Under the pieces are notes generated by a model. That model did no database searches. It was not told the origin of the DNA and saw only the letters and a list, made by a program, of their open reading frames with translations. From the NCBI GenBank assembly GCA_001724265.1, contig MEDY01000033.1, positions 62,001 through 126,000 of the forward strand: DNA of 64,000 nucleotides, given 5' to 3'. Positions 12,646-39,660 of the stretch are shown in pieces. The first letter of the stretch is position 1; every line of letters begins with the position of its first letter. The stretch comes from Rhizaria sp. SCN 62-66 (taxonomy: Eukaryota). The position numbers were made by a program, and so were the translations under genes.

Positions 12646-15600
12646 ATGGGAGGCAACGTCTCCTCATGCGGTTGCTCACAAACCAAAGTACGTCATCCCC
12701 TCACCACCCTAGCGTGTCCTAACATCATGCAGTCATCACATATGATGCTGAATCATGGAAATATTGAGCTTGTCAACAATCTACTGATGACTAAAATTCA
12801 CTATGCATTATTTACCCACCGATTTCTCCTCTTTGCTACAGCATGACATGATTGGCGTAACGCTGGCGTATGGCATTCGCGCCAGCTTCCAAGCTTACCC
12901 AGACCTCGCGCGATACGCTGTCTCTCGTGGTGAACGCAATGCTGTTGCCCGGCGCGCTCTTGAACTTGATCTCTAGCCAGGTGAAGCTGATCTCCCAGAA
13001 GGATTCGAGGATTTCAACGCTAATCAAGACTCCGCACAATCGTCATTCGGCACGACAACAGGAGCCGCCACAGGAGCAGCGCAAGGTGCAGGAGCAACGC
13101 CAGGAGCGAGAACAGTCGCGAGTCCTGTCGCCCCCGGTGGCGCAGCATCTCCGGTTGGTCTCTCTTCTCGCGGCGGCACAAAGCAGGGTTCCGGCGGCGC
13201 GGCTGCCGCGCTGTCTGTCGCTGCGACCGCAGGCAGCGGCAGCCACAGCCGCAGCGGCGGCGACAGCCAGGGTGAGGGCGACGACGTTGACGATGACGGC
13301 GATCGGCTGACCGAGGACTCGCTTTCGACGGTGCTTGTGCACACGCGCGATGGGCTCGACTACAGCGTATTTTCCCAGGACCACGACCACAACGACGACG
13401 ACGAAGACGAGGACGAGGATTACGACGATTACTACGACGATGATGACTACGATACCGATGCAAACGACGTTGTTGTGACCAGCACTGTTCCTGCGAACGC
13501 TGCTGGCAACGCCAGCGCTGACACTGCCGCTGGTGCTACAGGCGCCGGGACGGGTGATGCGGTTGGGGCGAGCACAAACAGCGCTGTCTCTGGTGCGACC
13601 AGTCCCGCCGTGTCCGAGCCCGCTGCGCGCACGCACCGCGCCCCGTCGATCTCGAAGAAGCAGCGCTCGTCGTTGGCGCTGCTGCAGCAGTCGCTGCCGC
13701 AGTCGCAGACGGCCTCACAGTCACAATCGCGGTCTCAGTCGCACCAGCCCTCGCCGTCGCCGCCCAAGACGCGGCCCTCGCAGCAGCAACAGCAAGTCGA
13801 CGAGCAGCAGTAGCAGGGCGACGACAAGCAGCAGATGCGCTCGCGCTCGCACTCGCGGTCACGGTCGCGCTCGCAGTCCGGCTCCGGCGTGACGCTCGCC
13901 GCGATGGGATCTGAGTCCGACGCCGCCGCTGGCGCTGCCAAGGACGGAAAGACGCGGACGCGGACCCGCTCTCGCGGCGACAGCATAGCGCGCCGCAACA
14001 GCGCCAGCCGTAGGTCGTCCACTGACGGCGACCGGGACATTGCCCGCGGCAGCGACGCCGGCCGGGAGCCAGACACCGCTGCGATCTTGGTCGACGAGAC
14101 CGAGGCTGCCGCGGAGGCCGCCGCTGTTGCTCGCCTTGCACTGGTGCCTGAAGAGGATGATTTCCTCAATAACAACAGCAACACTCATCACGATAACAGT
14201 AACAGTGATAACGCTACCGCGCAGAACACACGAGCTGACGACAGTAAAAAGGTCAGCACTAACGGCGATGCTGATAGCTGTGGCGATGATATCACAGCTT
14301 CTGCTGCTATGAACGCAAGTGCATCTAAGCCCACGGTCACGTTCTCGACCCCTTCTAAGGATTCGAAGCACCACCAGCAATCTCAGTCAGAGCACGTGTC
14401 CCCGCCGCACAAGTCTGGCGAGAGACGCAACCCTAAAGGGGTTCGCGTTAGCGCCTTGGACGAAGGCACGTTTATCCACATCACGACCGATGAGCCTAAC
14501 ACGTCGAAAACGACCACTGTCACCTTCACCAACAACAACAGCAACAGTAATAGTGTTACCGCCGATACCAACACCAACACTCTGTCGCCGCGCACAAGAG
14601 CTCGCACACTGGCTAACAGCTCTGCCGCTAACAGCAACAATAACAGCAGCGGCGGCAACGCGATGCAGACGGTCCCCAGTGCGCTGCTCGACGTTGACGA
14701 GCTCTTCGCGGACGCCGGTGCGCACACGCGCTTTCCGATCGAGTCCCTCTCCGTTACGCCGGTTGAGCTCGTCGTGCCGTCGCCGGACGACAGCGACAGC
14801 GGTGCCGGCGTGGGCTCAAAAACGACCGCGGACGCCGTTGGCAGCAACTCGAACCAGACCCCACACTTCGTCGGCGGCGCTAAGAAGTCCGCTCCGCCAG
14901 TAGACAGCAAGGACGTCGAGCTAGAGGTCGAAATGGTGCCCATGACGCGGCCTCCAGCGACCGGCGCCAAGCCTGCGAGGCCGATCACCAGCGGTAAGCA
15001 GAAGCAGCTTGTCGCTGTCGAGCGGCGCGCCCATACCACGGAGGTGTTGAGTTACCGCGGCGTGCTGAAGTCCTACGCGCCGCGGCTTATGCAGCGTATC
15101 CGCGGCCTCGAGGGCATCGCCGAGGCTGAGTACCGTCGGGCCCTGAGCGGCGATCCGGCCCCGTACATCTCGCTCAAGACAAACTCGCGGTCCGGAGAGC
15201 TCTTTTTTCTCACGGCGGATCGCAAGTACATCCTTAAGACGATCTCCGCGAGCGAGACGCGGCTGATGCTTCGGTACATCCTGGCGTACTACTTGCACCT
15301 GCGCACGTTTCCTTACTCGCTAGTGAACCGCGTCGTCGGCATGTACAAGCTCACGGTGCGGCATGACCGCAAGCAGTGTTGCGGTTACTCGCCCACCGAC
15401 GCCGCGGCCACGGCGGCCGAGCCGGGCAACGTCCGCGGCGGCCGCGGCAACGGCGCAGCGAGCAAGGCGCACTACATCGAGTGCTGCAACTGCTGCTGCG
15501 CGCAGTGCGGCGGCTGCGCGGGCGGGGGCTCGCGCAGTTCGCGCACGACTGTGTACCGCGTGATCGTGCTTAAGATGGCCTACCCGTCCGAGTGCAAGCT

Positions 15601-16837
15601 GAGTCTGCAGTTCGATCTCAAGGGCTCCACCGACAGGCGATTCGTACGTGCGACGAACCGAATTATAGCTATTTTCGTTCGTCCTTTATTAATATGTCAT
15701 GGATCTATTATTTGCTCATTTCTAACTGCTTTCCACTTGTTCATGTTTTTGTTTTAGGCATCCGCGAAAGAGCGTCTCAAGGCACTTCCGTGCTACAAAG
15801 ATCTCGACTTCGCCACCTGGGCGCATCGTGGTCTGTTCCCGATTCCCAACTACTCCATCCCGCGCCACATTAGCGCCCACAACAGCCACAGCAACGGCCA
15901 CACGCTCAGCCCGAGCGCCTCCCCGCTTCCTGCGCTCACCCACACTGCAGCCAACGCTAACGGCAACAGCTTCGCACAAACCGCGCCTGCCTTGGCAAAG
16001 CCAACCTCCGACGCTGCCGCGGTTGACGATGCCAACGGAGCGGCGACTGCTGTTGCGGTGACCGAGAGCGCGCTTTCTCCGGTCTCGCTTTCGTTAGTTC
16101 CTCCCAGCCCCCTGGTCCCGTTGTCCTCAGCCATCACGACCGCCGCCGGCACCGGTGCGGCAGCGGGCGCGCGCCAGCGCCGCCGCCGCAACTCGTCGAT
16201 CGCGCAGCCGCCGTCACACGCGGTGCCGCCGCTGCTGCCAGTGCCGCCCGCGCTGCCACTGCGCAAGCTCGTCAAGGCGCGGCGCGTGTGGGGACTGTCC
16301 GTCGCCGCCGCTATTGCGCGCGCGGCCGCGCTGCCCGGCCACCAGAGCGGCGGAGGTGCAATTACGTGCGCGTTGGCTGCGCGGCCGGAGGGCATCGTAC
16401 CGCATTTGACTCGTGAAGGCACGCTGTCGCGTGAGTACATCGCGTTCCTGTCGCTTTACTGCCCGCCGTACGTGTGGCCGGCGTCGCTGCTGTGGGCGCC
16501 CCCGGCCAATGGTAACGGCAACAACGGCGCTGGCGGCAGCAGCCCCACGCCCGCGGCCGCAAGACGGCTTGAGCTGGCCGTGCCCGCCGTTGTTGCAGCG
16601 TCTGCGGAGACCGAGTCCGTCGGCCCCAGGGACAACGGCGCTACGACCGGCGCTGATGACAGTACTGTGCGGGCCGGAGTGGGCTCCGGACTCGTGTCGT
16701 CGTCTGCTGTCGCGGCCGCGGTCGCTGTTGCGGCGGCCGCTGCCGCAGCTGAGCCCGAGTCTATTGCGCCTGAGAACGCAAGCAAAACCAGTAAGCCAGA
16801 TGCTGTTCCGACCAACACGACCTCAAAGCGCGGCGCG

Positions 16838-16872
<35 letters not shown>

Positions 16873-18728
16873 TGATGCTGCTGCTGACGGGAGCAACAGC
16901 AAGAGTGACAACAGTCGTGAGGCCACTGAAGAGTACAACTCGAACGAGCCTGCTGTCCCTGCGACCGCAGCTCAGGCCAACACGAATCAGACTGTCGCTG
17001 TCACAGTGACCACTGCGACCTTGCCTTCTGCCAACAGCAATAACAACAGCAATAACGCCTCGGTGGCTGCCGCCGCTGCAGCCGCTGCAGCTGCGGCTGC
17101 GGCGGCCAAGAGCAAGAAGGAGGACCGTCCGGGCACAGTGTATCGCACCACCGGCCTCGGTCCGCTCCCGCCCCCCAGCCAGGTACGATCAGAATCGCCG
17201 TTCTAACAAATCACTGATTATACACGTTATGGAATGCTACAAGTAATCTCAATCCTTTTATATGACCTCACTCTTCTTTATTGATATTCGCATGTGTTGT
17301 TCATTCTCTGTTCAGGCGCTGTACCGCGGCGGCATGAAGCTCATCGACGCGCCCCCGAACTTCCGCATCTACCTCGGCCCCGCCACGGCGGCCGTGATCC
17401 TGAAGCAGCTTGCGCGCGACGTCGAGCTTTTCCGACTGATGCGCGCGATGGACTACTCGCTGCTCGTGTGCATCGCGCGCGTGGAAGACGTACCCTCGTT
17501 TCCCGCCGCCAACACCGCTACCACCTTGCCATATGTCACCAATTCACTGCCTGGATCGGCCGCTGGGACGCGCGCTGGCACTGCTTCTGCTGTGAACAAC
17601 CAGAACAATCAGGGTAGCACGAACACGATCGGCAATTCGAGAGCGAACCACACCGCTAGTCGTGGAGCGACTGCCGAGAACGGCGTCATTGCGAGCGCGA
17701 GCGGCGTGCGCCTGGAGCTCATCAGCTCCACCTCGAACGCAAACACGAACATCAACGTAGGTGCCATGAGCAATAGCAATGCTGTCGACAGTGGCAAGAC
17801 CTCGAAGAAGCCACAGCAGCAGCAAGAGGAAGAGGAGGAGGAAGACATTGCGGTTGACAGCGACTATGCGGTCACGACCCCCGATGCTGATAACAACAAC
17901 ACCGCTGCGAAGAACGCTAATGGTGACAACCTCGACACTGCCAGAGAGGCTCCCCTTTCTGACCTGCGTTTGCACGCGCCCTCCCCCGCCCCGCTCGTTG
18001 CGGCTCATGTTAACGCCAGCAATGACGATGGCGTCACTCTGTCTGTAACTCCGACAACGACGGCCGGCGCAACTCCTGCTGACGGCAATGCTGCGACTGC
18101 GACTATTGCCGTTAATGCCGCTGCTCCTGCCGGCGACTCTCACAACGACGCTGTGAGCATCACCGTCACAAGCCCGGTCAACCCTGACAACAACGCTCCT
18201 GAGATCGTTGATGCCAACATGCCTGGTCGCCCTGCGAGTGTAGATGCGCCTGCTGTCAGCAACAACAGCAACAACAACAATAACTCCAGCTCTCTTACTC
18301 CTGCAGCCGCGCCAACGAACACGAACTCAAACACTCTCGCAGTCGCCGGGACTGTCGGTGCGACGCTGCCCCACGTCCGTTCGCGGTCCTCGATCGCCCA
18401 CTCTGCACACGATAGCGCCGCCAACGGCCACAGCCAGCACAGCAGCCACAGCGAGCAGCCCGCGTCGGCGGATGCGCGCGCGCGGCAGCTGCAGCAGAAG
18501 CGGCGCCGTCGCCTGTTTCGGCCCGATGGCGGCATCCAGTCCGAGGACGGGTCCTGCGTGTACTACCTCTCCATCATTGACTTCCTCAGCGAGTACGGAT
18601 TGCGCAAGAAGGCCGGGCAGTTCTTCAGCGTCGTGTTGCGCTGCGCATCGCTGTCTGAGATCTCGGCTACGGACCCCGACAAGTACGCGCAGCGCTTCCT
18701 CGAGTTCATGCACCAAGCCATCGGCTAA
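12646..18728 (+). CDS. Phosphatidylinositol-phosphate kinase (PIP5K family); join(12646..12687,12842..15643,15758..17182,17316..18728), ~1893 aa, needs two in-frame TAGs read as sense
   Basis: Motifs TLAYGIRASF, KSYAP, SRSGELFFLTADRKYILKTI, FDLKGS, YKDLDF, MDYSLLV, YYLSIIDFL and YAQRF. Three GTACG..AG introns. TAG at 12974-12976 and 13811-13813. Ends TAA. Confidence 0.88.
12974..12976 (+). other. In-frame TAG codon in PIP5K exon 2 (putative sense codon)
   Basis: Context GAT CTC TAG CCA GGT; the frame is open on both sides, 44 codons into the exon. Confidence 0.65.
13811..13813 (+). other. In-frame TAG codon within a Gln run in PIP5K (putative Gln)
   Basis: Context GAG CAG CAG TAG CAG GGC; joins ORFs 13331..13813 and 13835..15757 in frame. 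Confidence 0.8.
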
Positions 18729-19142
18729 CCGATGCTGTTGAAACGGTTTCGCAACGACGCTAGATGATTGGCGGTGACTTATTTCTCTTTTATTCTATCT
18801 TTGTGTTTTGTACACTTTTTATTGAATTCTCATCCTCTCTCTGTTTCATTACGCAAAATGATTTGACGAATAATACTTTGTTTATGTTTACGTCTGCCCC
18901 TCCGGTACATTTCGTTACACAGTTCTCTCTACTAGTCACTAAATTCGTGCGCGTATTATTACATGCACAAATACATACCTTTTTCTTTTTTTACATGAAG
19001 ACGTATGTTGCTCGCTGTCGAGCCATGCAGAAAATAGTCGTATGTCTTTTTGTATTCTAGATAACCTGGTGCGACCGCATCACGACGGAGTGTGACATCG
19101 ACACTTTGGCCACGCATCCACAATTCACTCATCCCATAACTC

Positions 19143-21077
19143 TCAATCCTGCTTCTTCGGTACTTGTCTCTTCACACGGCGCTTCACAAACGCAATTGCC
19201 GTAGGGGTGACAAAGGTGACCGCAATCACTGAGAGGGCGATATAGCACACTAGCACGGCAATCGCAGTGGAGTCACTCGTGTTCATCGTGTCGATCGCAA
19301 GGTTCACAGCACCAGTGAGCAAATTGGTGATCAAAAAGAATGATAACGGCGCGGAGTCGATCGCATTCACAGTCGCTCCAAGACCGGCGCCTCCAGCTTC
19401 CGCCATAGAAACCGTGTTTTCACGAAAGCCACGACTTGCGGCATCATTGCGGCTGCCTAACTTCGACTGGATCCAGCCGGGCACGTCGGCCGCCTCAACC
19501 GCAAGAGCAACTGTGAGCATGAGCGTTGCGAGCGCAATCTGCCACGCGACAAAGGCCGAATTTGCAAGCCTCCGTGAGACGTCTTGTGTTGTGTGCACAA
19601 GCACGGACGTTGCGAGCCAGGCAAGTGCACTGAAGCTGCCGATGATAATCGTGGCAGCAAGCGCGTTAGTCTTTGCAGAAGTCCGTTGTTGACTACAATT
19701 GTTAAGAGCAGCAGCCGCGTACAAAATACGACCAATTGGGACAGAGAGAAGCAAAATGGCAATATAGCCTGGTAACGATGCAATGCCTTCCTTGTTTGCA
19801 GTGAGCAAACCGACGCGTGGCGCGTTAAAGACCCAATCAGTCCCGTCAAAGGGGTTACTCAAACTGCTCGAGGAGAGTCTCAGAGGGTAAACAAGCCAGT
19901 ATTGATGCCCTGCCGTGATAGTGAGGCCAAGCAAAGCGCAGACCCACGCACGCGGGTGCGAGAGTGCCTGGGTGAGAACACGCTTCACGGCGCAACCAAG
20001 CGCTTTCGCGGACTGACAAGCCGTGTCGTTGCAACTGAGTTCAACCTCCTGGCAATACAAAGCAGCATCAAATTGGACGCTGCTTAACGCAGGGAGAAGC
20101 GCGTGCAAGAGCGCCGCGACGCCAAGGACAACGGCCAGCGTGAAAAAGAAGTTCCAGTGGACTCCGTATTCTGACGTGTGTACCTGGTAGTTGACGGAGG
20201 AGTTGCCGGCAATCCGCGCGAATCCGAGCACAGAGAGCAGGCCCGCGCTCTTGACGGCGGAGATTAGGCCGAGTGCAAGCCGGGACCGGAAAGAGGACGA
20301 GTTATTCGAGTCACCCGCAGCATGCTTGTGGTTGTTGTCGTTGTTGTTGGTGGTGGTGAACCCAGAGCGAGCTAATGGAGACACCAGCGCATTGACGACG
20401 ACAAACACGCCAACGCCGACGTCCATAAGTCCCGTGCCAAACGTCTCCGTCTTGGCAAAGCGGCGCGGGAAGGCATTGAAGTCGACGGCGAGGATGGCGA
20501 CGCCGGTGAGCAACAGAGCGCCCGCGCGGAGCCGGGTCGGCGCCAACAGCCTCCGCACGCCGGCGGCCGCGGGGGGCGGGGGGAGGCGCTCCGGGGCGAC
20601 GGGAAGCGCGGTGAGAAGGACCAGCGAGAGCAGAACGAGCCAAGCCTGGAGCGCGAGGAGCGCGGGAATGAAAGCAGGGTGCGTGCAAGCGAGGATGCCG
20701 GTGCCGGCGACTAGGGCGAAGTCGAACGCAGTCGCGAGCGCGGTCAGAAGCTTCCGAAGAGATGCACGAGAGGCAGAGGGATTAAGGTTCGCAAGAAATG
20801 CATTGATAAAAGTGGTAACTGCGTAGGAGAGAATCTGGCTAGTCCAGGTAGTCAGCTGAGAAGGGGGGGGGGGGGGGATTTATCTCTCTCTCTTTCTCTA
20901 AAAGGCCAGATATTAAGACATAGAGAGAACTGAAGAAAGAAAAAAGAACAAAAATCGATACTGCGCAAGACGTACAATAAAGGAAATTGCAACGAGAGTA
21001 ATCTCATGAATGCTTGTGCCGGAGTGGCCCGTCACAAATGCCTACTTGGCAGCCTTGACGGCATTGTTGTGCTGCAT
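19143..21077 (-). CDS. PIGW: GPI inositol acyltransferase PIG-W/GWT1; complement(join(19143..20855,20976..21077)), ~604 aa, one in-frame TAG
   Basis: N-terminus MQHNNAVKAAK*AFVTGHSGTSIHEI; motifs AILAVDFNAFPRRFAKTETFGTGLMDVGVG, SEYGVHWNFFFTL, ANKEGI, VSRRLAN and NLLTGAVN. One GTACGT intron. Ends TGA. Confidence 0.92.
20863..20877. repeat. G15 homopolymer (poly-C polypyrimidine tract of the PIG-W intron on the minus strand)
   Basis: 15 consecutive G, a few nt from the intron acceptor at 20856. Confidence 0.9.
21042..21044 (-). other. In-frame TAG at codon 12 of PIG-W (putative sense codon, Gln or Glu)
   Basis: Context AAG TAG GCA TTT GTG, at the E position of the KE(A/D)FV motif of PIG-W/Gwt1. 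Confidence 0.85.
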
Positions 21078-21641
21078 ACGCCGGTCTGTTAAGATGTTTT
21101 TTGAAGGCAAATGATCGTCAAATACCGTGAGATTTTGATATAATATGGAATAACTAAGTTTTTATATGTTCTGGTAATTATATCGTCGTATGGCATAGTT
21201 TTGTCCCTCTTGACATCTTGAGGTCATGCTGGGTCAAATCTGTTCACTTGCACTGTTTGTCTGTGTTGAGACTTGCACTGTTTGCATGTTTTCCGAGAAA
21301 CCCGATGATTTGTCACTCTGTACTATATGTGAGTGTATAGTTGAATATGACGTGATATCTATCGCGGTGTATATTGCTATAGAGCTATCTGTCGAGACTT
21401 GTTCCGCATCCAGTCCAAGATAACAAGCGTACTAGCTCAGTCCGGGCTTTCCTGAGACAGCGATACAAGGCATTAAGCGATTAGTGGCACTGCATTGTCA
21501 AAGCAACGAACGCAATCATCTTGATTTTAAGTTCAATCTGCGATAAAAACACATCTGATTGCATGGGCAGCTTCAAGAGTGACTTGGGCGATCACGAACG
21601 ATCAGTTCATCACGATGAATCTTGTTATTACCAGTTAGTCT

Positions 21642-22574
21642 TTAGATATCGCAGTACGAATTACTCACAAACGTCGTCAAAACATTAGGAAACCATTCTT
21701 TTTCAACAATAAGAGTCGCAACATCGTCCCTCACGCCCTCCCCAGTGCACTTAAAGTGCGAATATTCGTTTAACTGTTGCGGAACAACATAGCAATAGTC
21801 AACTTGCACGTCATTAATCTGCACGATCTTGTCATTCCAATCGAAACATGAATGCCCCGTGAATTTCGACACAAACTCATGCCCACGGTTCTCAACACGG
21901 CTCGCCGCGTTGACGGGTGGAACCGCAGTTGTAGCAAGCTTGAATCGCAAGAGATTAATTCGCAGACAATCGACAGGGGGAGACGCAGTTGCCCTGGTGT
22001 TACAGCTGGGGCTCACGTTATTGCTATCAACCTCTTTAACAAAGTTATACGCGCTAACAGCGACATGGCGTCTGTCAGTGGGGAGAGCGGAGATACAGTG
22101 ACGCTTCCTATCATTGAGAAGCCGAGGTACGAGCGCGTCCACCACATCAGCGACGTCTTCCACGACGTCGATAAACATCTGATTGTCAGACCACATTCCT
22201 AGTGACAAGCTCGGGCGCCCGTCTGCAAGACTTGTGGTGTCGATAACGGAGTGAAACCCCGAGAGAATCATAGGGTGAACCTGATTTACCTGGGCATGGA
22301 CAGACATCAGAGAAGTTGTTTTCATTGGGATAAAGCATCTCAAAGATAAAGCTATAGCTAATCCGAACGCACTACGGTAAAACAACCTATGAGATGACCA
22401 ATGCTCGCTCGCACATGAGTTTGCTTTGAATTCTGTGTTTGCCATGAGCAACCATGAGCAACTCAGCAACCCCTGTACACTGTCGAGAAGAAAAAGAAAT
22501 CTGTATAAACTTAAGCGACGTAAGAAAAATGATTTGTGGTCGATTTGGACCAGGACGCTGTCTAAACTGAACAT
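21642..22574 (-). CDS. Hypothetical orphan ORF (310 codons, lower GC than neighbouring genes)
   Basis: Long open frame in an otherwise intergenic-looking region. No motif, and composition unlike other genes here. Confidence 0.25.
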   Translation of the reverse strand: MFSLDSVLVQIDHKSFFLRRLSLYRFLFLLDSVQGLLSCSWLLMANTEFKANSCASEHWSSHRLFYRSAFGLAIALSLRCFIPMKTTSLMSVHAQVNQVHPMILSGFHSVIDTTSLADGRPSLSLGMWSDNQMFIDVVEDVADVVDALVPRLLNDRKRHCISALPTDRRHVAVSAYNFVKEVDSNNVSPSCNTRATASPPVDCLRINLLRFKLATTAVPPVNAASRVENRGHEFVSKFTGHSCFDWNDKIVQINDVQVDYCYVVPQQLNEYSHFKCTGEGVRDDVATLIVEKEWFPNVLTTFVSNSYCDI

Positions 22575-22946
22575 ACATAAATCAACACAGCAAAGATCTT
22601 GTTTGAATCAATTATGCTGCTCATTGATTGAACGCGATGTATTTTATATCAAAATCATATTTTTTTCTCTCCGGAAAACTGTCGGAGCTTGTGCGGAAGT
22701 GTCCGGCGTCGGATGTAGCCCCGTATGCACCTCCTCTCATGTTACGATATTCGCCAAGTTTTCTATGCATATATCGCATGTGTAACAAGCGTAGCACGTT
22801 TTACTTAAATGAAACTATCTTCATCTTTATAATTACTCTGTTTCTCCTCTCATAGGCTAGCTTCTGCAACGCTGTAGTGATTCTTGTATTTGTCGCGTGA
22901 GTTTGAGCAGTAACGTCGTCCACCTCCCGGCTCCTGTCCCCTGCCG

Positions 22947-30500: not shown

Positions 30501-33500
30501 TGTAGCCACGATTAGTACTCGCTGCAGAAAGCGCGGACTCAGGCATTGCGCTGTGGGAGCTCATTTTTACACCGTACCCGTTGCCGTGCAAATTTGCACC
30601 AGATCGGTAGCTGTAGTGGTGACCGAAGTTCCCGCTGCTGCGCCGCATGACCACCGACGGCCCCGCCGACTGCGGTGTAGTAAAAAAGGCGCCGCTAAAC
30701 GATGCGTTCGACTGCTGCTGAATCGGTTGCAGGGAGACACCGTTATTGTTAATGCTGTTCCGGGTACCAATCAAGGGTGATCCCGGACTGAAGTTTGACA
30801 CGGATGCGGTCGCCGCGGCGGATGCGGAGCCCGCTGTGGCCGACGCAATACTAGACCTCTGCGGCGTGCCATACGGCGCCGATGCACCGGCCTCATTGAC
30901 TGTAAGGGGCTCAGTGGGCGACTCGCAGTGCTGAGCGTTGCTGCCGCTGTCCGCAGACTCGGGGCTCGAGTTCGCATTACTGGTGGTGGTCACGTTTGCA
31001 AGGCTGGCGATGGCGGCGGCCGCGGGCGCCGCGCATGTCGGCGTCGGCGTGTCCAGACTGGACGTGACCTCCGTAGGAGACACGACGAGGCGGGATAGAG
31101 CCACCGGCGGCACGGGGCCGGCAGCGCTACTGCTAGCTGTGGTCCCGTTAGCGTCCGCACCTGCATTCGCAGGAGTGCTGGCAAGAGCAACGGACAAACC
31201 CGGGTCGCTGAGCCTGGCGGTGCTCATCGCAGCACTCCGCGGTCGCGCCGTGTCCTGCACCGTCACGCCAGCAAACCCCGCCGCAGACCCCGCAGCAGCG
31301 GCCGCAGCGGCAGCGGTGGCGGCGGCGGCAAACAACAACGCGTTATGCACGTTGGCGGTGTGGGTACTCGGCGCGGGGGTGGCGCCGCGGAGCTCTGTGG
31401 GCGTGAGCACGCGGTGGAACGGGGACAGCGCGTGTGGCGGCGGCGTGGGCGCGGCAGAGGGGACGCCGACCGCGTGGAGCCGGCTGGCGCTCGCCAGCTG
31501 CGCCCAGTGCAGCGCGTTGTGGAAATGCTGCTGCTGGTAGTGCATCTGGCTTGCAGCGGCGTTGGACGCGGCGGCAGAGGTTGGAGTGGTCGTTGCGGAC
31601 GTGGCTAAGGTGGACGCGCGCGGTAGCTGCTGGTCGAGTCTGGGCGCAGATCCAGCCGTGTTAAAGCTATTGCGGCTGCCTGTGTAAACCGGGTAGCCCT
31701 GACTCTGGCTTGGGTGCTGAGGCACAGTACCGGCGGCAGGCGCGGTAGAGCCACTCTGGCTCTTGCTGTGACTCAGTGCTAGTCCGCCTAGTCCAAGGCT
31801 GTGACCGTGGACGGGGCCAGAGCCCAGACCGACACCGAGCCCGTGAGCCTGCGCAAGCTGTCCTGGGCTAAAGCCAACGTTTGTAGACGGAGACATTGTG
31901 TTCGCCGCGAAAGTGTTTACGTTTGTTGTGTTCGATACGGCGGTCGGTGAACTCGATGGCGTGGCAGAGAAACCAGACGTTGCGTTCGCAAATGTCGGTG
32001 ACAAATGCTTCGGTGACAGCGATGAGTAAGGCAAAGCAGCAGCAGCAGCGGTGTGGAGGTGCAGGTGGAACGGCTTGTTTTGGGCAGCGGGCCCATAGGG
32101 CACAGCACTGCCCTCGTCTTGGTTGCCCATTGTGGTTGCGGATGCAGCAGTCGTTGCAGGCCCGGCAGCCACGCCAGTAGCGTTGAAGTCGTTGTAGCTC
32201 GCACCTACGTTGTTTACGTCCACTGCAACTGCTTGTTGCAACGCGGTAGGATTGAGCGGTGACACAACCGCATTGCGCGCTGCCACTACACTGCAAGCTG
32301 AGTGTGGCGGTGTGTTGACTGTCGAGCCCGGAGCAGTCGTCGTCTTGGACCTCAGCAAGCCAGCGCCGCCAGAGTACACAGCGACGCCGTCGTGCGGCCC
32401 TGTGCTCGTGGCGGTGCGGGGAATGTCGCTGCCACCGTTGTGCGCGAAGTCGGGCGGACTGCTGTCGCACGATCGCCGCTGCTGGTTCACTGCGGCCGGG
32501 TTGTAAGGCTTGTGGTCGGTGATGACGGCGTCGCCATGTCCGCTCTTGTTCAAGCTGGAGTGTGCCTGGACGCTCGATAGTGCAAGTTCATATCCGCTAT
32601 CGTAAACAAGCGGGTTCACCAGCTCGGGCGGTTCCAGCGCGGCCGCGACGGGGCCCGCGGTCACGAGGTGCAGCGCCATCGGCGACGGACTGAGGATCGG
32701 CGTCGCCGTGCCCACCAGAGCGTTCGCATTCGCACTCACGGTGAGCACAACGGCAGGCGGGCGGCTGGGGTCGTTGATGGCAACATTAGCGCTGATGCTG
32801 TTGCCGCTGCTGCTGGCAGAAGAGAAGCTCGAGTCTGCAACCGAGCAGCTGTCGACCGTGAGAGGATACGGCTGCCCGCCTGGCGGAAGCGACAACAAGT
32901 GCCGTGAGCTGTCGTCGGCAACGGCAACCGTCGCATTAGCACCCGAGTTATTGGCGTTGTTATGAGCGTTAAGGGCGTCAAGTGTGCCAGAAGGAAGCGA
33001 GGGCGAGGACACAAAGAGCAACGGGGTTAAAACAGGTGTACCCGTTACGACAGCTGTGGAAGCTACAGTTGTTGCTGCCGTCGGTGCGTTAATCACGTTG
33101 GTGGCGCTTTCATGGGTGTTCTTGCTAGAAATAGCGTTCGCAGCGTCGTTTAACTCGTGTGCAGTTGGGAATGTGAAGTGTTTTGGTCGCTGCGGTGGTA
33201 ACATCGCAAAACTAGAGCTCCGACTGTGCGATGTCTTAACATGTTCGTAGGGCTATGACGGTACCTGAGCCTGAGCCTGTGCTTGTGCCAACGCCTGCTG
33301 CTGCCGAATGTGCCTCCTCATAGCGTACGCGTTTGCGGCAGCTGTGATATCAGCCTCGGATAGAGCCATCGAAGCAATCCAGCCAGCGACGGCGCGCGAC
33401 TCCGCGTTGTTGCCCCGACGCACGCGGCTGCTGATAGCGGCGGCGAGGCGTTGCTGCTCAGTGAGGTCAACGCCATCAGCTGCGTTGCTAGCGGGATTGG

Positions 33501-36500
33501 CAGTAGACGCAACAGCACTGTCAAGGCTAGCATTAATAGCTTCGATGTTATTACTCGTGTCGCTCTCAATAAGAACGTCATCGTGGTTGCTACTAACAGC
33601 ATCATCATGCGTGTCGTTGTTGCCGTCGTCGTCGTCATCATCGTCAGGCGCAAAACACTGTTCAGCAAGCGTCTCGCTAACTTGCGAACGGAACAGCTCG
33701 TGTGGTGACTGCAGCAAGTACGGCACCGGTGCGGGGAGATAGGGCGAAGGTGAGACCTCTAAGAACCTCGGGTGCCGGTCAAAGTGTTCCGAATTCCTAC
33801 TTGCCATCATGGATGAGCTCAGCGAAACTGTGACATCAGGATGAGCAAAGTCCGCATTAGGGTACGAGATGTTGTTACTACTGACATTGCTCATGTTGTG
33901 ATCGTAATGGGGGTTTTCGGGACCCGAAAGAGACAGGCAAACGCTCGTATTCGCAGGAACCGCATCAACAACAACAGCGTCCTTTGTGCTCAACGTGGCG
34001 TCTGCGGCACTGCTATGTGTGTTCGAACTACCCGTACCAGTATTTCTCCGAGGACTGGTGTTGCGGCTATTGTTACTCAGGTTCGCTCTTGTGATGGTGG
34101 CGAGAATCGTCATTGGTTCAACCGGGGCAGCAGCGGCGGCGGCGTCTGTCTCGGAGTTGCCTGCAGTCATCATAGCCCCGCTGTCGCTCACGCTTGCGCC
34201 GCTGTCACCGCCGCTGACGTAGGCAGCGCTCACACTCCTCGCGCTGGCGTTGCTGCCGCTACTGCTGTTGCTGTTGCTGCTGCCGTGGGTGTGATTGCTC
34301 GCGGAAGATGAACTGTCAGCAGCAACAATCGGAGTAAGCCCGCCCCCGCGGCAGTTTGCACCGGCAGTCAAGACGACGGCGGGTGCGGGTGCAGGGCCGG
34401 GAGACATCAGCGACTCCAGCTGCATCCGCCGCGACATCGGCTCCTGTTGGCCGCGGCTGCTGTCGCTGTGTTCGTCCAACGTTGTCAGCGACAATACAGG
34501 CGATTGCGGCGAGTGCGACTGCTGCTGTTGAAACACACGGACACGCACAGGTACACCATTGCTCCGCTGTTGCGTGTCTGGCAGAAACAATGTCTGGTCG
34601 TTGCCGTCACCGTCCGTGGTGTTCGTATTTGCATCAATGTTGGAGTGAAGCTGCGCGTAATACTGCGGCGGCGACATCGCGGTGCGGCGGCGCAAATTAA
34701 GCTGCATTTGCAGCTGCGGCGGCGAGTAGCCAATCTCTTCTTCGCTGTCAATACCGACGCCGGACCCCGCCGTGCCAGGACTGGAGCCGGCGGCGGAGCT
34801 GACAACGCGACCGCTGTGGAACGGACACGGGGCCGCGTTAGCGGCGTTCGCCCGCAGACGGCTGTTGTCGAAGTCGACCGCGGGGGACGCAAGGATAGTC
34901 ATGTTCGCGCCGTTTAAGCTCGTCAAAGTCACCTGGTCGCCGGGGCTGTGCTCATCCTGCTCCAAGATGTAGTGTTGGTCGTCACCGAGGCTCGCAGCCA
35001 CCGTCAGGCCGACGCCGTCCGCCTGTGTCTTAGCGCCCGCGTCCGCGTTGCCCCCCACAGCCGCGGTTCCGCTGTCACAGTGGCTGTGCGGGTGGTGCGT
35101 GTAGGCGAGCGAGCGCACCGTCATCGTCGATGACAGCGGGCCGATGGTAGTCGCGCAGTCGCCGTCGCTGCCGATGGCGCTGTCGGCGCTACTCCCGGCG
35201 TTTCCGGCGTTGTTGCCGTGGTTGATGAGAGCAAGGGTGCGGCGGCATGTGCACGGGCAAGTGCACTGCAGCCCCGCGTTGTTGCTGCCGCCACCGGCGT
35301 TGCTAGCGCTGCCGGAGTTGGCGGACGTGCGGAGCGCTGCAAAAGGCGGTGACAGAGAGAGCACCGACGCAGGCGGCGCAATGCTAATCAGCGTGCGGTC
35401 GGAGCCAACGGGGCTGCTGCCGAACATTGACGGCGCGGGGCTGAAGCCCACGGTCACGCCGCCCTGGTGCGCCGCGGCGTCGCTGGTCGTCGCCGCGGGA
35501 CCGGGGGCAGTAGCGGGCACAGTCAGGCTCCCGGCGTTCGGGCGCAGGATGCCGCTGTTGCTACCACTGGCATTCGCGGTGATGTTGTCCGCGTTAGAGC
35601 CGATGAGTGCGTTGCTGGTGGGAATCAGCACCTGCAAGCCGGCCGTAATGGGGTTTGCAGTCGTGCGCGTGCGCGTCATTGGCGTTACACGCGGGGTCGT
35701 AGTCGCTGCAGCCGCGTCGGTGAACGTTGACGGAGAAGCGCCGTTGTTGTTAGCGCCGCAAGTCGCCGTGTCAGTGTCAGCAACATTGGTATTGTTTGAC
35801 GCGGATTTGTTGGGACTCGCACTCGCGCTTGCACTAGAGCTCGCGCCCGTGCTGAACTCGCTGTCTGCGGAGCTGCAGTTGTTATGGCTGTGAGACACAA
35901 ACCCTATGTTGCTCATAAAACTGCTCCGGTTGCTCCGGCTCTGCGTTTGGCTGCCGTGGCTCTGCCGAGCGTACGCCGTGTTCGAATTGGTTGCGCCGGT
36001 ATTGTGATTACTATTGCCATTGGTTGTGGCCGTCGGGGGACGGTAACCGTGACGAGGGCAGCTTGGACTGTACAGAAGGACCACCGCCGTCGTCCCCGCA
36101 CCAGCGCCAGCTGGCGCGCCGGCACCAGCGGCGGCAGCAGCTCCGGCGGCGTTGACGTCCGTGACCCCGGTGTTTTCGGCCGTCAATCCGGGGCGGTTGA
36201 GCGCAGGCGGGGAGACGCCGACCACGGAGGCGGGTCCCGGGGTTGACGCCGGCGCATGCAGGCGGCCGTGCGCGGAGGAGTAGTAGTGCGCGGACTGGCT
36301 ATGGGAAAATGGGGACGGGAAGCGCGCGCCTGAGGACGACGAAGACGAGAGTAGCGATGAGGACGATGATGAGAACGACGGCATGCGCGTGTGGTGGGGC
36401 AGGATGAGGTCGTTGCGGTACGAAACGTCGTCGCTCATCGCGTTGTTCGTGTTTTTGATGTTGACACGGTCCTCCACACCGCCATTGTCGTCGTCGTGAT

Positions 36501-39500
36501 GACCGTTGTTGTTGTTGCTCGTGTCGGGGGAACCGACAACGACGGTCTCAGCCTGGGCAGCGGCGGTGTTGACATTCGTGGTAATCACGTTGCTGTTGTA
36601 CATCACGTTGGTCCTGCTCCCGCTGCCACCGCTGTTGTTCAAGTAAGAGTCCGCGGTGTAGCGCTTGCTCCGGTTCCTGGTCAGAGTCGCGGCCGCAGTC
36701 AGCGTCGTCTTGGTCAGCGCGCCGTTCGCGGCCTCAGCACACGCAGTAGGCAGCGCGCCGATCGGCGGCGAAACCGCAACAGCAGGAATGTTAGCGTCCG
36801 GAGTGAGGGGACCAGGGTTGACCTGAGTCGCGTTGTCCCCGGCACCAACATCGCTAGCAAACCCCTGTCTTGGCGTCGCGCCGGCGCTGCCGGCAAAGTC
36901 CCCGCTGGCATTGAGACTGTTGCCGTTGGCACCCGCACTGTAGCCCTCGTCCTCGTCGTCCTCGGCCTCGCCAGTCGACCCCGTGCGCATGTACGGCGGC
37001 TGCAGGCGGCGCGGCTTGCCGACGTTGGCGACACTGAAGCTGCCGAGCTGCTGCAGCAACGCGTGTCGGTCCACGCTCCGCTTGCTCGAGCTCTTCTTGC
37101 CGGCGCCGCTGCTCTTGCCGCTGCCGCTATTGTTGCTGTTATTATCGAAGAGGTCCTGGGGCGGCGAGCTGAGCACGCTATCGGCGACTGTGCTGAAGCT
37201 GTTGCGCGGACTGCCCCGGTAAGGGGGATGCGCCCTCGACGGCACGACGATGATCGCGCTGTGTCGTGGCCGCGCGCTCATCGTGGCACCACCGCCAACA
37301 GTAGCCGTCCCTACATTTGTGGGAGAGGTCGGCGTCGCAGCTGCGGCGGTGGCTGTTCTCGGCAAGCCAGACGCAGTCACCGGTGACGCCGCCACACCGG
37401 CCAAGCTCACGGTAACGCCCTTGTCCGTGCCCGCAAGTGCGCTGATAACGACGCCCGACGTTGCAGCAGGTGAGACCAATGCGGCCGCGTTCTTCGCGTT
37501 GGCAGCACCAGCCCCATTCTGATTAAGCGCGTCAGCGGCGTAGCTGGGGTTATAACTGTGGTTATGCGACAGCTGAGTATGCGCCTGCATCATCGCGTGG
37601 TTGTGGCTGTGGCCGCGGTGGCCGTGGGCGGCCACGGGGGCGGAGCCGCAGCTTGCGTCAGAGTCACTGCAGCAGTCGCTCTCGTCATCGTCGTCATCTT
37701 CGTTGTCGAGCGCTCTATCGTCAGAGCTATCGCTTTCGCTGCCGCGGCGATACGTGCCGGCAACGCCCATACCGGTGTCAGCACAGAGGTTGAAACCAGC
37801 GCAGGCGCTGGCGCGAACAAGACCCGCAAGGGCGGCGCCGGTGGCCCCAGTGCCATCAGTGCCAATGCGAACGCGGTTGCGGGTGGCGCGCGGGTTTGCG
37901 TGCTCGCCGTCGCTGGCCCCCACCGCACTGGCCACGCAGCTGTGCAGCCCTCGGGCGCTGTGACCGCAGTCGCTGTGCAGCACGATGTCCCGCGCGCTGT
38001 CGAGGCCGCTGATGTATCCGCTGGCAAACCCGCTGTGAGAGCCGCCCGTGACATCCGGCGTGATGCCCGGTGTGATTCCCGGTGTGGTGCCAGGCGTGAT
38101 GTCGCTGGCCAGACCGAGGCTGCTCTGCGGCGCGTCGTGGTCGTGCGACGGGCCCGCCGCGTGTCTGCTCGGCTGCGTGCTGTGGGCGCCGCCGACGCTG
38201 CTGGCGGCGAGCGGCGCGACGCTGGCGCTGCCGCACACGGCGTCCACGCTGGGAACGGCGCCGGTGGTGGTGCTGGCAACGGCCCCGGCGATTGCGACTA
38301 CGCCGGGTGCCGCGCCTGCGCCGGTGAGAGCGTTCGCGCCGGTACGGCCGTCGGTGCCGGAGACTGTGACGATGCCGGTGGTGTAGCTGGAGTTGGTGCT
38401 CGTGGCACTGCTAACCGCGGGCTGTGCGAAGGCGGTGGGGCGGTGGAGGATCGCGAGGGAGACTGGCCCTGTCATGCTCAGGCCGCAGTGGGCGTCGCCG
38501 CTGTCGGTCGCGTTGTTGTTGTTGTTGTTGTTGGGAGTATTGTTGATGTGAGGATTAGCAATGAGTGTGCTGTTGTTGTGAGGAGTAGGAGTTGTGTCAT
38601 TCACGTCATCGTCCTCGTAATGCGTATCGTCCTCGTAATGCGTCCCGATGCGCGGTGCGAACGCCGTAAAGTGGCCGTGGAACGCGCCGAAACTGCCGAT
38701 ATTGTTCATGTAGCTACCATTAAAGCTGCTACCGTTACTGTAGTTGACGCAGTCCTGGGCGTTCATGCTCGTGTTAGCGGTGCTACTAGCCAGGTACTTG
38801 TTGATCGAGCTCAGAGACAGTGTCGACGCCGACATCGACACAAACGACATCATGCCGGTGACATCCGACTTGGTGCTCAGGTCGGCGGGCGTGCTCAGGA
38901 GGCCCCGGCTGTCGTCGTAGTCGAAGCCGCGCGCGCCGCCGCTGTCGTGCGCAGCACTAGCGCACCCGCTCGTAACGGCGTTGGGACCTGAGCGCAACGG
39001 GGAGTGCGCGTGCACCGACTCCGTGTCCGTCACTGCGGGCCCCGCGGACGAGTTATCGCCGGCTGCACTGGCACGTGACGCCGCCCCTGCTGTCGTCGTC
39101 GAGAGAGTGGGCGCGGGCGCGTTCGTGGATGCTGCAGTTATAGTGCCGGTCGTCGCTGTTGATGCGAGAGAAACGGCACCGCCGGAGGAGTCAGCGGGAA
39201 GTGACGGAAAGAGCTCGGTGGCGCCCGCAGATGAAGCATCAGCGCTAATAGACCCGGCTCCAGCGATGGACTTTCTGGTGCTTGATACGGTGCTATGGGA
39301 GTTGTCAGAGGCGACCATTGCGGCAGACCTGAGGAGCAACGGCCCCACAGTAGAGTCAGCGGCGCCCAAACCTTCATCAACGCCTGATAAGGCGGAACCT
39401 TTGTAGCAAACAGTGGCATGTGATGCGGTCAACACTGTGGTAGCTGCGTCGCAAGGGACAGAAATGGCCTGAGCGAGACGGGATGAAAAGGGGGGCACGT

Positions 39501-39660
39501 GTTTTCCTTGCCCCGAGATATCTTCCTGTAACTCGACATCCCTGGTCGACACATGACCTTCAGTTTGCGCTAAGGGACGTCCAAATGTAGCTGAAGATAG
39601 GTGGTGTCTTTCATGCGGATCTTGGAGAGACGCCAGGTGATTAGCGGCCGGGACTGACAT
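27550..39660 (-). CDS. Giant class I 3',5'-cyclic-nucleotide phosphodiesterase (~4036 aa if two TAGs are sense); catalytic domain at the C-terminus
   Basis: PDEase motifs WDFDVF, PYHNSIHAADV, HDVGHPG, LENYH, ATDM, HAADVSNP, EWYLQGD and QKGFIDF in 27550..29450. ORFs 33253..39660, 29641..33204 and 27550..29634 are in one frame, interrupted only by single TAGs. Ends TAA. Confidence 0.8.
29641..29643 (-). other. In-frame TAG in the PDE gene (putative sense codon)
   Basis: Context AGT TCA TAG TCG GCA TTG GAT; the frame continues directly into the catalytic-domain ORF. Confidence 0.75.
33253..33255 (-). other. In-frame TAG in the PDE gene (putative sense codon)
   Basis: Context QAQAQVPS*PYEHVKTSHSRSSSFAM; 16 open codons link it to the ATG at 33204. 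Confidence 0.75.

What the first reader, a model, noticed from the sequence alone, without database searches (positions are those of the whole stretch)
12646..39660. Non-standard nuclear genetic code: TAG reassigned to a sense codon (probably Gln) while TAA and TGA stay stops
Seen: five isolated in-frame TAGs (12974+, 13811+, 21042-, 29641-, 33253-) interrupt continuous coding frames in three unrelated genes. There is no frameshift and no AT-rich spacer or intron at these sites, and no in-frame TAA/TGA interrupts any gene model. All 15 visible gene ends are TAA (11) or TGA (4). Known: UAA and UAG are nearly always reassigned together in nuclear codes; uncoupled cases are rare (as I recall, UAG=Gln in the fornicate Iotanema and UAG=Leu in an uncultured rhizarian). 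Inference: the contexts (inside CAG CAG TAG CAG, after a QAQAQ run, at a conserved Glu position in PIG-W) favour Gln, then Glu, and argue against Leu. This would imply a tRNA with a CUA anticodon and an eRF1 that discriminates UAG from UAA. Neither gene is in this window.
Basis: partly seen in the sequence, partly recalled or inferred. Interest (0 to 1): 0.95.

Follow-up and report, generated by a model that had tools for sequence, protein, structure and literature searches.

The report
TAG read as an amino acid
An unnamed, GC-rich single-celled eukaryote from wastewater seems to read the stop codon TAG as an amino acid (probably glutamate) and still stops at TAA and TGA, which is a rare kind of change to the genetic code.

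Summary
All five TAGs lie at the stated coordinates, in frame, inside three unrelated intron-poor nuclear genes: a PIP5K, GWT1/PIG-W and a 4036-codon phosphodiesterase (PDE).

They are not assembly errors. Contigs from three other studies carry the same letters at the four sites I could lay, and a polyA-RNA-library contig carries one TAG unspliced.

The strongest site is GWT1 codon 12. It sits inside the conserved N-terminal motif K-x-x-K-E-A-F-V, 11 codons after the ATG, and the next Met is residue 178 of 604. In PIP5K an acylation-type start (MGGNVSS…) precedes two TAGs, and the 278 codons between them hold no Met.

No exon holds an in-frame TAA or TGA in about 14,700 codons. The 15 gene ends are 11 TAA, 4 TGA and 0 TAG. 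This genome's introns are AT-rich and begin GTACG, and none fits the TAG sites.

I support TAG as a sense codon at about 0.82. I disagree on the amino acid. At the only conserved site, 65 of 74 homologues have Glu and 1 has Gln, so Glu is favoured, though on one column only.

No tRNA(CUA), eRF1 or whole genome could be examined. The DDX27 and CCT4 proteins have no close named relatives.

The parts
12646..12687 (+). PIP5K exon 1. ATG at 12646, 14 codons, with an N-terminal MG..S..C.C acylation-type motif.
   Evidence: It ends in phase 0 at a GTACGT donor (12688).
12688..12841 (+). PIP5K intron 1, AT-rich, from a GTACGT donor to a ..CTACAG acceptor.
   Evidence: GC is 0.35-0.37 inside the intron.
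12842..15643 (+). PIP5K exon 2 (934 codons). It holds in-frame TAG 12974-12976 (protein residue 59) and TAG 13811-13813 (residue 338). The start of the PIP5K catalytic domain lies near its 3' end.
   Evidence: There is no Met in the 278 codons between the two TAGs. An X3 contig covering 13700-15151 has 0 differences.
15644..15757 (+). PIP5K intron 2 (GTACGT ... CTAAC ... TTTTAG). The TAG at 15755 is its 3' end, not a codon.
15758..18728 (+). PIP5K exon 3 (15758-17182), intron 3 (17183-17315) and exon 4 (17316-18728, ending in TAA). The Pfam PIP5K profile runs to position 287 of 288, 3 residues before the stop.
19143..20855 (-). GWT1/PIG-W exon 2. It ends in TGA at 19143-19145.
   Evidence: GWT1, 302 bits, match from profile position 26.
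20856..20975 (-). GWT1 intron (GTACGT donor, poly-C tract, ..TTCTCAG acceptor).
   Evidence: An X6 contig has 59 letters in place of 22 here. That length change is not a multiple of 3, as expected for non-coding DNA.
20976..21077 (-). GWT1 exon 1 (34 codons). ATG at 21077-21075; TAG 21042-21044 is codon 12, inside the conserved K-x-x-K-[E]-A-F-V-[ST]-G motif.
   Evidence: Pfam GWT1 profile positions 2-25, E = 0.006. (E in 65 of 74 homologues). An X6 contig keeps the TAG.
27550..39660 (-). Phosphodiesterase gene, a single 4036-codon ORF from ATG 39660 to TAA 27550. In-frame TAG 33253-33255 is residue 2136 and TAG 29641-29643 is residue 3340. The PDEase_I catalytic domain lies at the C-terminus.
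   Evidence: PF00233, 241 bits; contigs from X3, X4, X6 and X7 span 29641, and an X4 contig spans 33253. None of them differs at the TAG.

Best explanation
In this organism's nuclear code UAG is a sense codon, while UAA (preferred) and UGA terminate. The window is intron-poor, GC-rich (about 60%) nuclear DNA. Its DDX27 and CCT4 proteins have no close named relatives. It recurs in bioreactor and wastewater metagenomes.

Five UAG codons are translated inside three ordinary genes: PIP5K residues 59 and 338, GWT1 residue 12, and PDE residues 2136 and 3340. The codon is rare (5 in about 14,700 codons). It is found only in three genes, two of which are long and rich in low-complexity sequence; as a set they have lower GC3 than the other genes. 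That is the pattern expected for a codon that vanished as a stop and is slowly re-entering genes.

The inserted residue is most likely glutamate and less likely glutamine.

Shown here: the TAGs are real, they recur in other samples, and they sit in frame within coding sequence, once inside a conserved motif. No TAA or TGA does this, and no gene ends in TAG.

Inferred, not shown: a tRNA with anticodon CUA charged with Glu (or Gln), and an eRF1 that no longer recognises UAG but still recognises UAA and UGA.
For: 1. GWT1 exon structure. The exon 1 peptide matches Pfam GWT1 profile positions 2-25, and exon 2 continues from position 26.
2. GWT1 motif. The TAG is codon 12. Of 150 homologues, 74 align over it, and they show E 65, I 3, V 3, N 1, L 1, Q 1. 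The Lys residues upstream of the TAG are also conserved (K in 49 of 59 and in 49 of 73). The first Met after the TAG is residue 178 of 604.
3. PIP5K. An ATG with an acylation-type start sits in exon 1 and splices in phase into exon 2. TAGs follow at residues 59 and 338. There is no Met in the 278 codons between them. The catalytic domain lies downstream in the same frame.
4. PDE. The 4036-codon ORF has 0 TAA, 0 TGA and 2 TAG in frame. The other two frames hold 102 and 162 stops.
5. Gene ends are 11 TAA, 4 TGA and 0 TAG of 15. There is no in-frame TAA or TGA in about 14,700 exon codons.
6. Introns. Seven introns read in detail are AT-rich (about GC 0.3-0.45): six start GTACG, the RtcB one starts GTATGC, and a CTAAC branch motif was seen in some. 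In the scan, 13811 has no GTAYG donor within 600 nt upstream and none of the five TAG sites has a CTAAY within 150 nt upstream; 29641 and 33253 do have GTACG-like strings upstream, and one in-frame GTAYG..AG candidate (420 nt, GC 0.54) encloses 33253; there is no drop to intron-like GC at 13811, and GC stays at 0.45-0.53 after 29641 and 33253.
7. Independent contigs. X3 pieces with 0 differences span 13811 and 29641. X4 pieces span 29641 and 33253. An X6 piece, a strain variant with 2 SNPs elsewhere, spans 21042, and another X6 piece spans 29641. The polyA-RNA-library run X7 has a 402-nt piece with 0 differences across 29641. None of the 12 variant places listed falls in a TAG.
8. An in-frame 6-nt insertion variant lies 41 nt downstream of TAG 13811 in X6. 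This fits coding constraint beyond that TAG.
Against: - Only one of the five sites lies in conserved sequence. The other four are in low-complexity regions with no homologues (one search found only the same organism).
- All five stops being TAG is expected with P = 0.06-0.09 under random nonsense mutation, because CAG, GAG and similar codons are common.
- The sample is one 64-kb window with 15 gene ends.
- No tRNA gene is in the window and no eRF1, and no genome is held.
- The RNA evidence is a single Logan contig at one site, from a library that may also contain DNA. No contig shows a spliced intron, so RNA origin is unproven.
- Relatives' DNA could not be obtained, so conservation of the code in the clade is untested.
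- The Glu assignment rests on one alignment column.
Confidence: 0.82

Rival explanations
1. The code is standard and the TAGs are true stops. The three genes are then pseudogenes or give truncated products, or the long ORFs are separate tandem genes that happen to share a frame.
For: Under random nonsense mutation TAG is the most likely stop to arise (share 0.57-0.61), so 5 of 5 TAG has P = 0.06-0.09. The PDE middle ORF has a Met 17 codons after TAG 33253, so a separate gene cannot be excluded there on ORF grounds alone. The region has no homologues.
Against: - About 6,500 codons in the three genes carry no frameshift and no TAA or TGA.
- GWT1 would make an 11-residue peptide. Its next Met removes 177 of 604 residues, including conserved domain.
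- The 278-codon ORF between the PIP5K TAGs has no Met.
- After 14 true gene ends (and one intronic TGA first counted as an end) the frame closes after a median of 13 codons and GC drops. After the TAGs neither happens.
- No variant was reported at the four laid TAG sites in the runs that cover them, from three other studies, including one strain variant.
Confidence: 0.06
2. TAG is ambiguous or leaky. It still terminates at some gene ends and is read through elsewhere. This could be context-dependent stop/sense as in Condylostoma and karyorelict ciliates, or programmed readthrough by a near-cognate tRNA.
For: Three of the five TAGs are followed by C, recalled as a poor termination context in eukaryotes. 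Only 15 gene ends were seen, so a low share of TAG terminators cannot be excluded.
Against: 0 of 15 gene ends use TAG. The downstream contexts share no motif: CCAGGT, CAGGGC, GCATTT, TCGGCA, CCCTAC. GWT1 needs efficient decoding at codon 12 to yield any functional protein.
Confidence: 0.08
3. The TAGs never reach the ribosome. They are removed by unconventional in-frame introns, or changed by RNA editing, before translation.
For: Two introns in this window happen to keep the frame open (15644-15757 and the one holding TGA 55856). So in-frame introns that stay invisible in ORF maps do occur here.
Against: The introns read in detail start GTACG (one GTATGC) and are AT-rich. At 13811 the scan finds no GTAYG donor upstream, no CTAAY and no AT-rich dip. 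At 29641 and 33253 it finds no CTAAY within 150 nt upstream and no drop to intron-like GC, although GTACG-like strings lie upstream and one in-frame 420-nt candidate (GC 0.54) encloses 33253. The polyA-library contig 29576-29977 carries TAG 29641 unchanged and unspliced. In GWT1, removing the TAG region would delete the conserved motif that surrounds it.
Confidence: 0.03

Closest known systems
Iotanema spirale (Fornicata): UAG = Gln, UAA and UGA stops. Read as passages of the Discussion of PMC11687900; the primary paper was not read.
   Same: A nuclear code in which only UAG is reassigned, in a non-ciliate protist.
   Different: The only conserved site here points to Glu, not Gln. The CCT4 protein here is 62-64% identical to those of animals, fungi, Balamuthia and Spongospora. 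No fornicate or other metamonad sequence was compared, so whether this organism is related to Iotanema is untested.
Uncultured rhizarian (exLh): UAG = Leu. From the same passages of PMC11687900.
   Same: UAG is uncoupled from UAA in an uncultured protist known only from environmental data.
   Different: Leu is opposite the TAG in only 1 of 74 homologues. The relationship to Rhizaria is unknown.
Oligohymenophorean ciliate PL0344: UAA = Lys, UAG = Glu. PMC10553269 seen as title and abstract listing, plus the passage in PMC11687900.
   Same: UAG is probably read as Glu and differs in meaning from UAA.
   Different: Here UAA is the main terminator (11 of 15 gene ends). The organism also does not look like a ciliate: it is GC-rich and has GTACG/CTAAC-type introns.
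Phyllopharyngean ciliates: UAG = Leu or Gln, with UAA the preferred stop. PMC11687900, abstract and Discussion passages.
   Same: Only UAG is reassigned, and UAA is fixed as the preferred stop. Here TAA accounts for 11 of 15 ends despite a GC3 of 0.7-0.8.
   Different: A different lineage and a different probable amino acid. UAG usage here is very low (about 0.34 per 1000 codons).
Blastocrithidia nonstop: UAR = Glu, UGA = Trp, with UAA also a stop. Abstract listings of PMC12153298 and PMC12152300.
   Same: UAG is read as Glu.
   Different: There all three stop codons are reassigned. Here UAA and UGA show no in-frame use.
Scotinosphaera (green alga): UAG = Ser, UAA a stop. Passage in PMC11687900.
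   Same: UAG-only reassignment outside the ciliates.
   Different: Ser does not occur opposite the TAG in any of the 74 homologues.

Membership tests
Nuclear codes with UAG alone reassigned to sense (UAA and UGA stay stops) | In-frame UAG inside conserved coding sequence, aligned to a consistent amino acid | tested here: met
   GWT1 codon 12 lies inside the K-x-x-K-E-A-F-V motif, with E in 65 of 74 homologues. There is only one such site. The other four TAGs are in unconserved low-complexity sequence.
Nuclear codes with UAG alone reassigned to sense (UAA and UGA stay stops) | UAG is not used as a terminator | tested here: met
   0 of 15 gene ends use TAG. The sample is small.
Nuclear codes with UAG alone reassigned to sense (UAA and UGA stay stops) | UAA and UGA terminate and do not occur in frame | tested here: met
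   There are 11 TAA and 4 TGA ends. Several are fixed by homology: the PIP5K profile reaches 287 of 288, CCT4 reaches 486 of 490, and the DDX27 C-terminus aligns with 4 relatives. There are 0 in-frame TAA or TGA in about 14,700 exon codons.
Nuclear codes with UAG alone reassigned to sense (UAA and UGA stay stops) | A tRNA gene with anticodon CUA | not testable with these tools
   The window holds 0 tRNA genes and gives no Rfam hit. No genome is held.
Nuclear codes with UAG alone reassigned to sense (UAA and UGA stay stops) | eRF1 altered in its stop-codon recognition motifs | not testable with these tools
   eRF1 is not in the window, and no further contigs of the organism could be reached.
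Nuclear codes with UAG alone reassigned to sense (UAA and UGA stay stops) | UAG retained in mature mRNA | tested here: inconclusive
   One contig from the polyA-RNA library (X7, 29576-29977) keeps TAG 29641 with 0 differences. Contigs cannot prove RNA origin, and no spliced junction was seen.
UAG = Gln codes (the NCBI table 15 pattern, recalled; Iotanema, some ciliates) | UAG aligns with Gln in conserved columns | tested here: not met
   Gln occurs in 1 of 74 homologues at the only conserved column, against 65 with Glu. This is a single column, so Gln is disfavoured but not excluded. The CAG-run context at 13811 fits Gln.
Ambiguous stop/sense codes (Condylostoma, karyorelicts) | The same codon also terminates at gene ends | tested here: not met
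   0 of 15 gene ends use TAG. The sample is small.
Programmed stop-codon readthrough | A shared downstream readthrough signal, limited to C-terminal extensions | tested here: not met
   The five downstream hexamers share no motif. The TAGs lie 11 to 3339 codons from the start, with the catalytic domains downstream.
Pyrrolysine decoding of UAG | pylT and pylS genes | not testable with these tools
   No genome is held. It is unknown in eukaryotes (recalled), and I consider it very unlikely.

The most novel reading that the evidence does not exclude
A nuclear genetic code in which UAG alone means glutamate while UAA and UGA terminate. This combination is absent from the list of known UAG-uncoupled codes in the Discussion of PMC11687900. 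My three code-change literature searches and one for wastewater protists did not find it either. It would be carried by a previously unsampled GC-rich protist clade (the window plus at least four unnamed metagenome relatives in the DDX27 tree) that recurs in wastewater and bioreactor samples from 2015 to 2025. The very low UAG usage would make it a young or slowly filling reassignment.
Probability: 0.5. Interest if true: 0.85.

Novelty: new variant of a known kind. Interest (0 to 1): 0.8.

Why it matters
UAA and UAG almost always change meaning together. Each uncoupled case tests how eRF1 and tRNAs can tell the two codons apart.

A non-ciliate, GC-rich lineage with UAG as sense, possibly as Glu, and with a strong TAA preference would add an independent origin. 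It may also add a new codon-meaning combination.

The organism recurs in wastewater reactors, so DNA, RNA and protein samples are within reach. That makes the tRNA, the eRF1 and the peptide evidence directly testable.

There is also a practical point. Standard-code gene callers cut this organism's long genes at every TAG. One example is the 698-residue fragment P0276 in a public protein set. Its proteome in public databases is therefore fragmented.

Tried and rejected
- Whole genome: none is held, so no genome-wide codon inference, BUSCO stop tally, tRNA scan or eRF1 check was possible.
- The window has 0 tRNA genes and no Rfam match.
- Relatives' DNA, metagenome scan: using DDX27, the scan chose low-complexity peptide patterns. 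It returned only 10 distant loci at 25-55% identity (L001-L010), which I did not use.
- Relatives' DNA, genome scans: two scans of prokaryote genome contigs with CCT4 (single protein, then alignment A2) found nothing.
- Homologue search with the PDE ORF between the two TAGs found 1 protein, from the same organism (P0276, 100% identity). There is thus no comparative test of continuity.
- Nonsense-mutation null: P(5 of 5 TAG) = 0.06-0.09, not decisive alone.
- Codon-usage log-odds in 50-codon windows: at 13811, 29641 and 33253 frame 0 scores above frames 1 and 2 on both sides, but the scores are near zero (0.0-0.5). The test is weak because these genes have lower GC3 (0.70) than the training genes (0.81).
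- Strain SNPs: 2 synonymous and 2 non-synonymous between the PDE TAGs, which is uninformative.
- Lineage: in the DDX27 tree the window and 4 unnamed proteins form a clade (support 100). It lies outside the sampled fungi, oomycetes plus a labyrinthulid, plants and a haptophyte. Few groups were sampled and the root is arbitrary. The best named CCT4 hits reach only 62-69%. Placement stays open.
- Uncovered parts of run X7, and bins without listed pieces, are not evidence either way.
The five sites span 20,282 bases and the limit is 20,000.
- Papers' supplementary files were not consulted.
Full report
WHAT THE WINDOW IS

The window is 64 kb of nuclear DNA from a eukaryote. GC is 0.43-0.73 in 2-kb windows and about 0.6 overall. 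Pfam finds these genes:
- a DTW-domain gene
- a PIP5K
- GWT1/PIG-W
- an ABCA transporter
- a class I phosphodiesterase (PDE)
- PP2C
- RtcB
- DDX27/Drs1
- CCT4

Introns are few. Seven were read in detail: three in PIP5K, one in GWT1, one in RtcB and two in the coiled-coil gene. A 3' end was also seen in CCT4. They are AT-rich (about GC 0.3-0.45). Six of the seven start GTACG and the RtcB intron starts GTATGC; a CTAAC branch motif was seen in some; they end YAG.

No genome is held for the window. It has no tRNA gene and no Rfam match.

The DNA recurs in bioreactor and wastewater metagenomes. Ten run rows from six studies, dated 2015-2025, hold the queried 10-kb stretch or part of it, and six rows hold at least half of its words.

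CHECKING THE OBSERVATION

All five TAGs are at the stated coordinates and in frame. Read with TAG open, PIP5K exons 2 and 3 together with intron 2 form one 1471-codon frame. The PDE forms one 4065-codon frame.

Six other TAGs inside such frames lie in intron ends or 5' leaders: 9663+, 15755+, 39712-, 47854-, 55290- and 59846+.

Gene ends are 11 TAA, 4 TGA and 0 TAG of 15. One apparent end, TGA 55856, is inside an intron: ORF 55856-58720 and the coiled-coil ORF 54195-55388 are one gene with two GTACGT introns. The long minus-strand ORFs 59093-61654 and 42895-44088 are antisense artefacts of CCT4 and PP2C.

In about 14,700 exon codons there are 5 TAG, 0 TAA and 0 TGA in frame (exon limits partly approximate).

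ARE THE TAGs REAL?

I laid four runs on 13700-33400. Site 12974 fell outside the 20-kb limit.

None of the 12 variant places reported lies in a TAG codon. Listed contig pieces across the sites:

| Site | Run and piece | Differences |
|---|---|---|
| 13811 | X3, 13700-15151 | 0 |
| 21042 | X6, 20900-21853 | 2 SNPs elsewhere, so a different strain |
| 29641 | X3, 24504-30629 | 0 |
| 29641 | X4, 28747-31367 | 1, at 31222 |
| 29641 | X6, 29014-30109 | 0 |
| 29641 | X7 (polyA-RNA library), 29576-29977 | 0 |
| 33253 | X4, 32967-33400 | 0 |

Assembly error and rare polymorphism are therefore excluded for four sites.

The X7 piece shows the TAG unspliced and unedited in an RNA library. But contigs cannot prove RNA origin, and no spliced junction was captured. 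I count this as weak support.

GENE ANATOMY

GWT1
- Exon 1 (20976-21077, minus strand) encodes 34 residues that match Pfam GWT1 profile positions 2-25.
- Exon 2 matches from position 26.
- The TAG is codon 12.
- I searched 1.84 billion representative proteins and aligned the N-terminus against the best 150 homologues. In 74 of them an N-terminal stretch aligned; in the other 76 none did.
- Opposite the TAG these 74 have E 65, I 3, V 3, N 1, L 1 and Q 1.
- The two lysines upstream of the TAG are also conserved (K in 49 of 59 and in 49 of 73). Conservation therefore runs through the TAG.
- The next Met is residue 178 of 604.

PIP5K
- Exon 1 (12646-12687) starts with ATG and an MG..S..C.C acylation-type N-terminus.
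- It splices in phase 0 to exon 2 at 12842.
- The TAGs are residues 59 and 338.
- The 278 codons between them contain no Met.
- The catalytic domain follows in the same frame and continues in exons 3 and 4.

PDE
- The gene is 4036 codons from ATG 39660 to TAA 27550.
- It has 2 TAG and no TAA or TGA in frame, against 102 and 162 stops in the other two frames.
- The catalytic domain lies after the second TAG.

What follows each kind of stop
- After 14 true TAA/TGA gene ends (and the intronic TGA 55856, then counted as an end) the frame closes after a median of 13 codons, and GC falls to 0.27-0.52.
- After the TAGs the frame runs on for 278-1203 codons.

RIVALS

Nonsense mutations or pseudogenes
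- TAG is the most likely nonsense codon here, so 5 of 5 has P = 0.06-0.09.
- This rival would also need three genes to be broken by substitutions alone, with no frameshift in about 6,500 codons.
- The TAGs would also have to persist unchanged in the other samples and studies laid.
- It also leaves GWT1 without a start.

Hidden introns or editing
- At 13811 the scan finds no GTAYG donor within 600 nt upstream, no CTAAY and no AT-rich dip.
- At 29641 and 33253 there are GTACG-like strings upstream and one in-frame 420-nt candidate (GC 0.54) around 33253, but no CTAAY within 150 nt upstream and no drop to intron-like GC.
- Removing the GWT1 TAG region would delete the conserved motif around it.

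Leaky or ambiguous TAG
- No gene end uses TAG.
- The five downstream contexts share no signal.
- Fifteen gene ends cannot exclude a low share of TAG terminators.

WHICH AMINO ACID?

The only conserved column says Glu (65 of 74) rather than Gln (1 of 74). The acidic context at 12974 (..LELDL-TAG-PGEADLPEGFEDF) fits Glu, and the CAG run around 13811 fits Gln. The other two sites are neutral.

Given that TAG is a sense codon, I put Glu at about 0.6-0.65, Gln at about 0.25 and anything else at about 0.1.

WHO IS IT?

- DDX27's nearest relatives are unnamed metagenome proteins at 84, 67, 66 and 62% identity in the helicase core. Named eukaryotes reach at most 57%. No names could be retrieved for the unnamed ones.
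- In a DDX27 tree the window and these four form a clade (support 100). It lies outside the sampled fungi, oomycetes plus a labyrinthulid, plants and a haptophyte. Sampling was narrow and the root arbitrary.
- CCT4 gives unnamed relatives at 84-74% and named taxa at 62-69%.
- All four DDX27 relatives have full-length proteins that align end to end with the window's. That gene therefore says nothing about their code.

COMPARISON WITH WHAT IS KNOWN

According to the Discussion of PMC11687900 (passages; abstract), the reported UAG-only nuclear reassignments are:

| Organism | Meaning of UAG |
|---|---|
| Uncultured rhizarian | Leu |
| Iotanema spirale | Gln |
| Scotinosphaera | Ser |
| Protocruzia tuzeti, Hartmannula, Trochilia | Gln |
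| Three phyllopharyngean MAGs | Leu |

In addition, ciliate PL0344 has UAA = Lys and UAG = Glu. Blastocrithidia reads UAR as Glu (abstract listing).

That paper also reports UAA as the fixed preferred stop. The window parallels this with 11 of 15 TAA ends, despite a GC3 of 0.7-0.8.

Three literature searches on code changes found no report of a UAG = Glu-only nuclear code, and one on wastewater protists found no report of a protist with a changed code. Supplementary files were not consulted.

VERDICT

TAG as a sense codon, with TAA and TGA as stops, is the best explanation (0.82). Glutamate is the more likely meaning.

The finding is a new lineage for a known kind of code change. If Glu holds, it is also a new codon-meaning combination. 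Confirmation needs the organism's full contig set, its tRNA(CUA), its eRF1, raw RNA reads and peptides.

Noticed in passing
window 54195-58720 (- strand): ORF 55856-58720 and the coiled-coil ORF 54195-55388 are one gene joined by two GTACGT introns. The TGA at 55856 and the TAG at 55290 are intronic. The first intron happens to keep the frame open, so it looks like an in-frame TGA on an ORF map.
   Followed up: yes
window 59093-61654 (-) and 42895-44088 (-): These long minus-strand ORFs are antisense artefacts of the GC-rich CCT4 and PP2C genes on the plus strand. GC-rich coding DNA here gives long open frames on the wrong strand.
   Followed up: yes
all gene ends in the window: There is a strong TAA preference (11 of 15 ends) although GC3 is 0.7-0.8. 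GC-rich genomes with the standard code usually favour TGA (recalled). This may reflect altered release-factor specificity.
   Followed up: partly
window 12646-12687 (+): The PIP5K begins with a short exon encoding MGGNVSSCGCSQTK. This is a myristoylation/palmitoylation-type N-terminus (motif recalled, not tested).
   Followed up: no
window 20877-20900 (GWT1 intron) and 13852 (PIP5K exon 2): Two strain length variants appear in run X6. The poly-C tract in the GWT1 intron has 59 letters in place of 22. A 6-nt in-frame insertion (depth 4.5 of 19.5) lies 41 nt downstream of TAG 13811.
   Followed up: partly
window 27550-39660 (-): The phosphodiesterase carries an N-terminal extension of about 3400 residues, rich in Ala, Ser, Thr and Asn. 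It has no detectable homologue outside the same organism. Long low-complexity extensions are common in the window's genes.
   Followed up: partly
proteins P0003, P0005, P0006, P0009 (DDX27) and P0278-P0284 (CCT4): A set of unnamed relatives at graded distances exists in public metagenome and transcriptome assemblies. Nearby hits include arthropod transcriptome entries that are probably contaminants. This points to an unsampled protist clade.
   Followed up: partly
window 21642-22607 (-), 4788-5864 (+), 61848-63998 (+), 3-3992 (+): Several long ORFs have no Pfam match. Their status as genes rests on ORF length alone.
   Followed up: no
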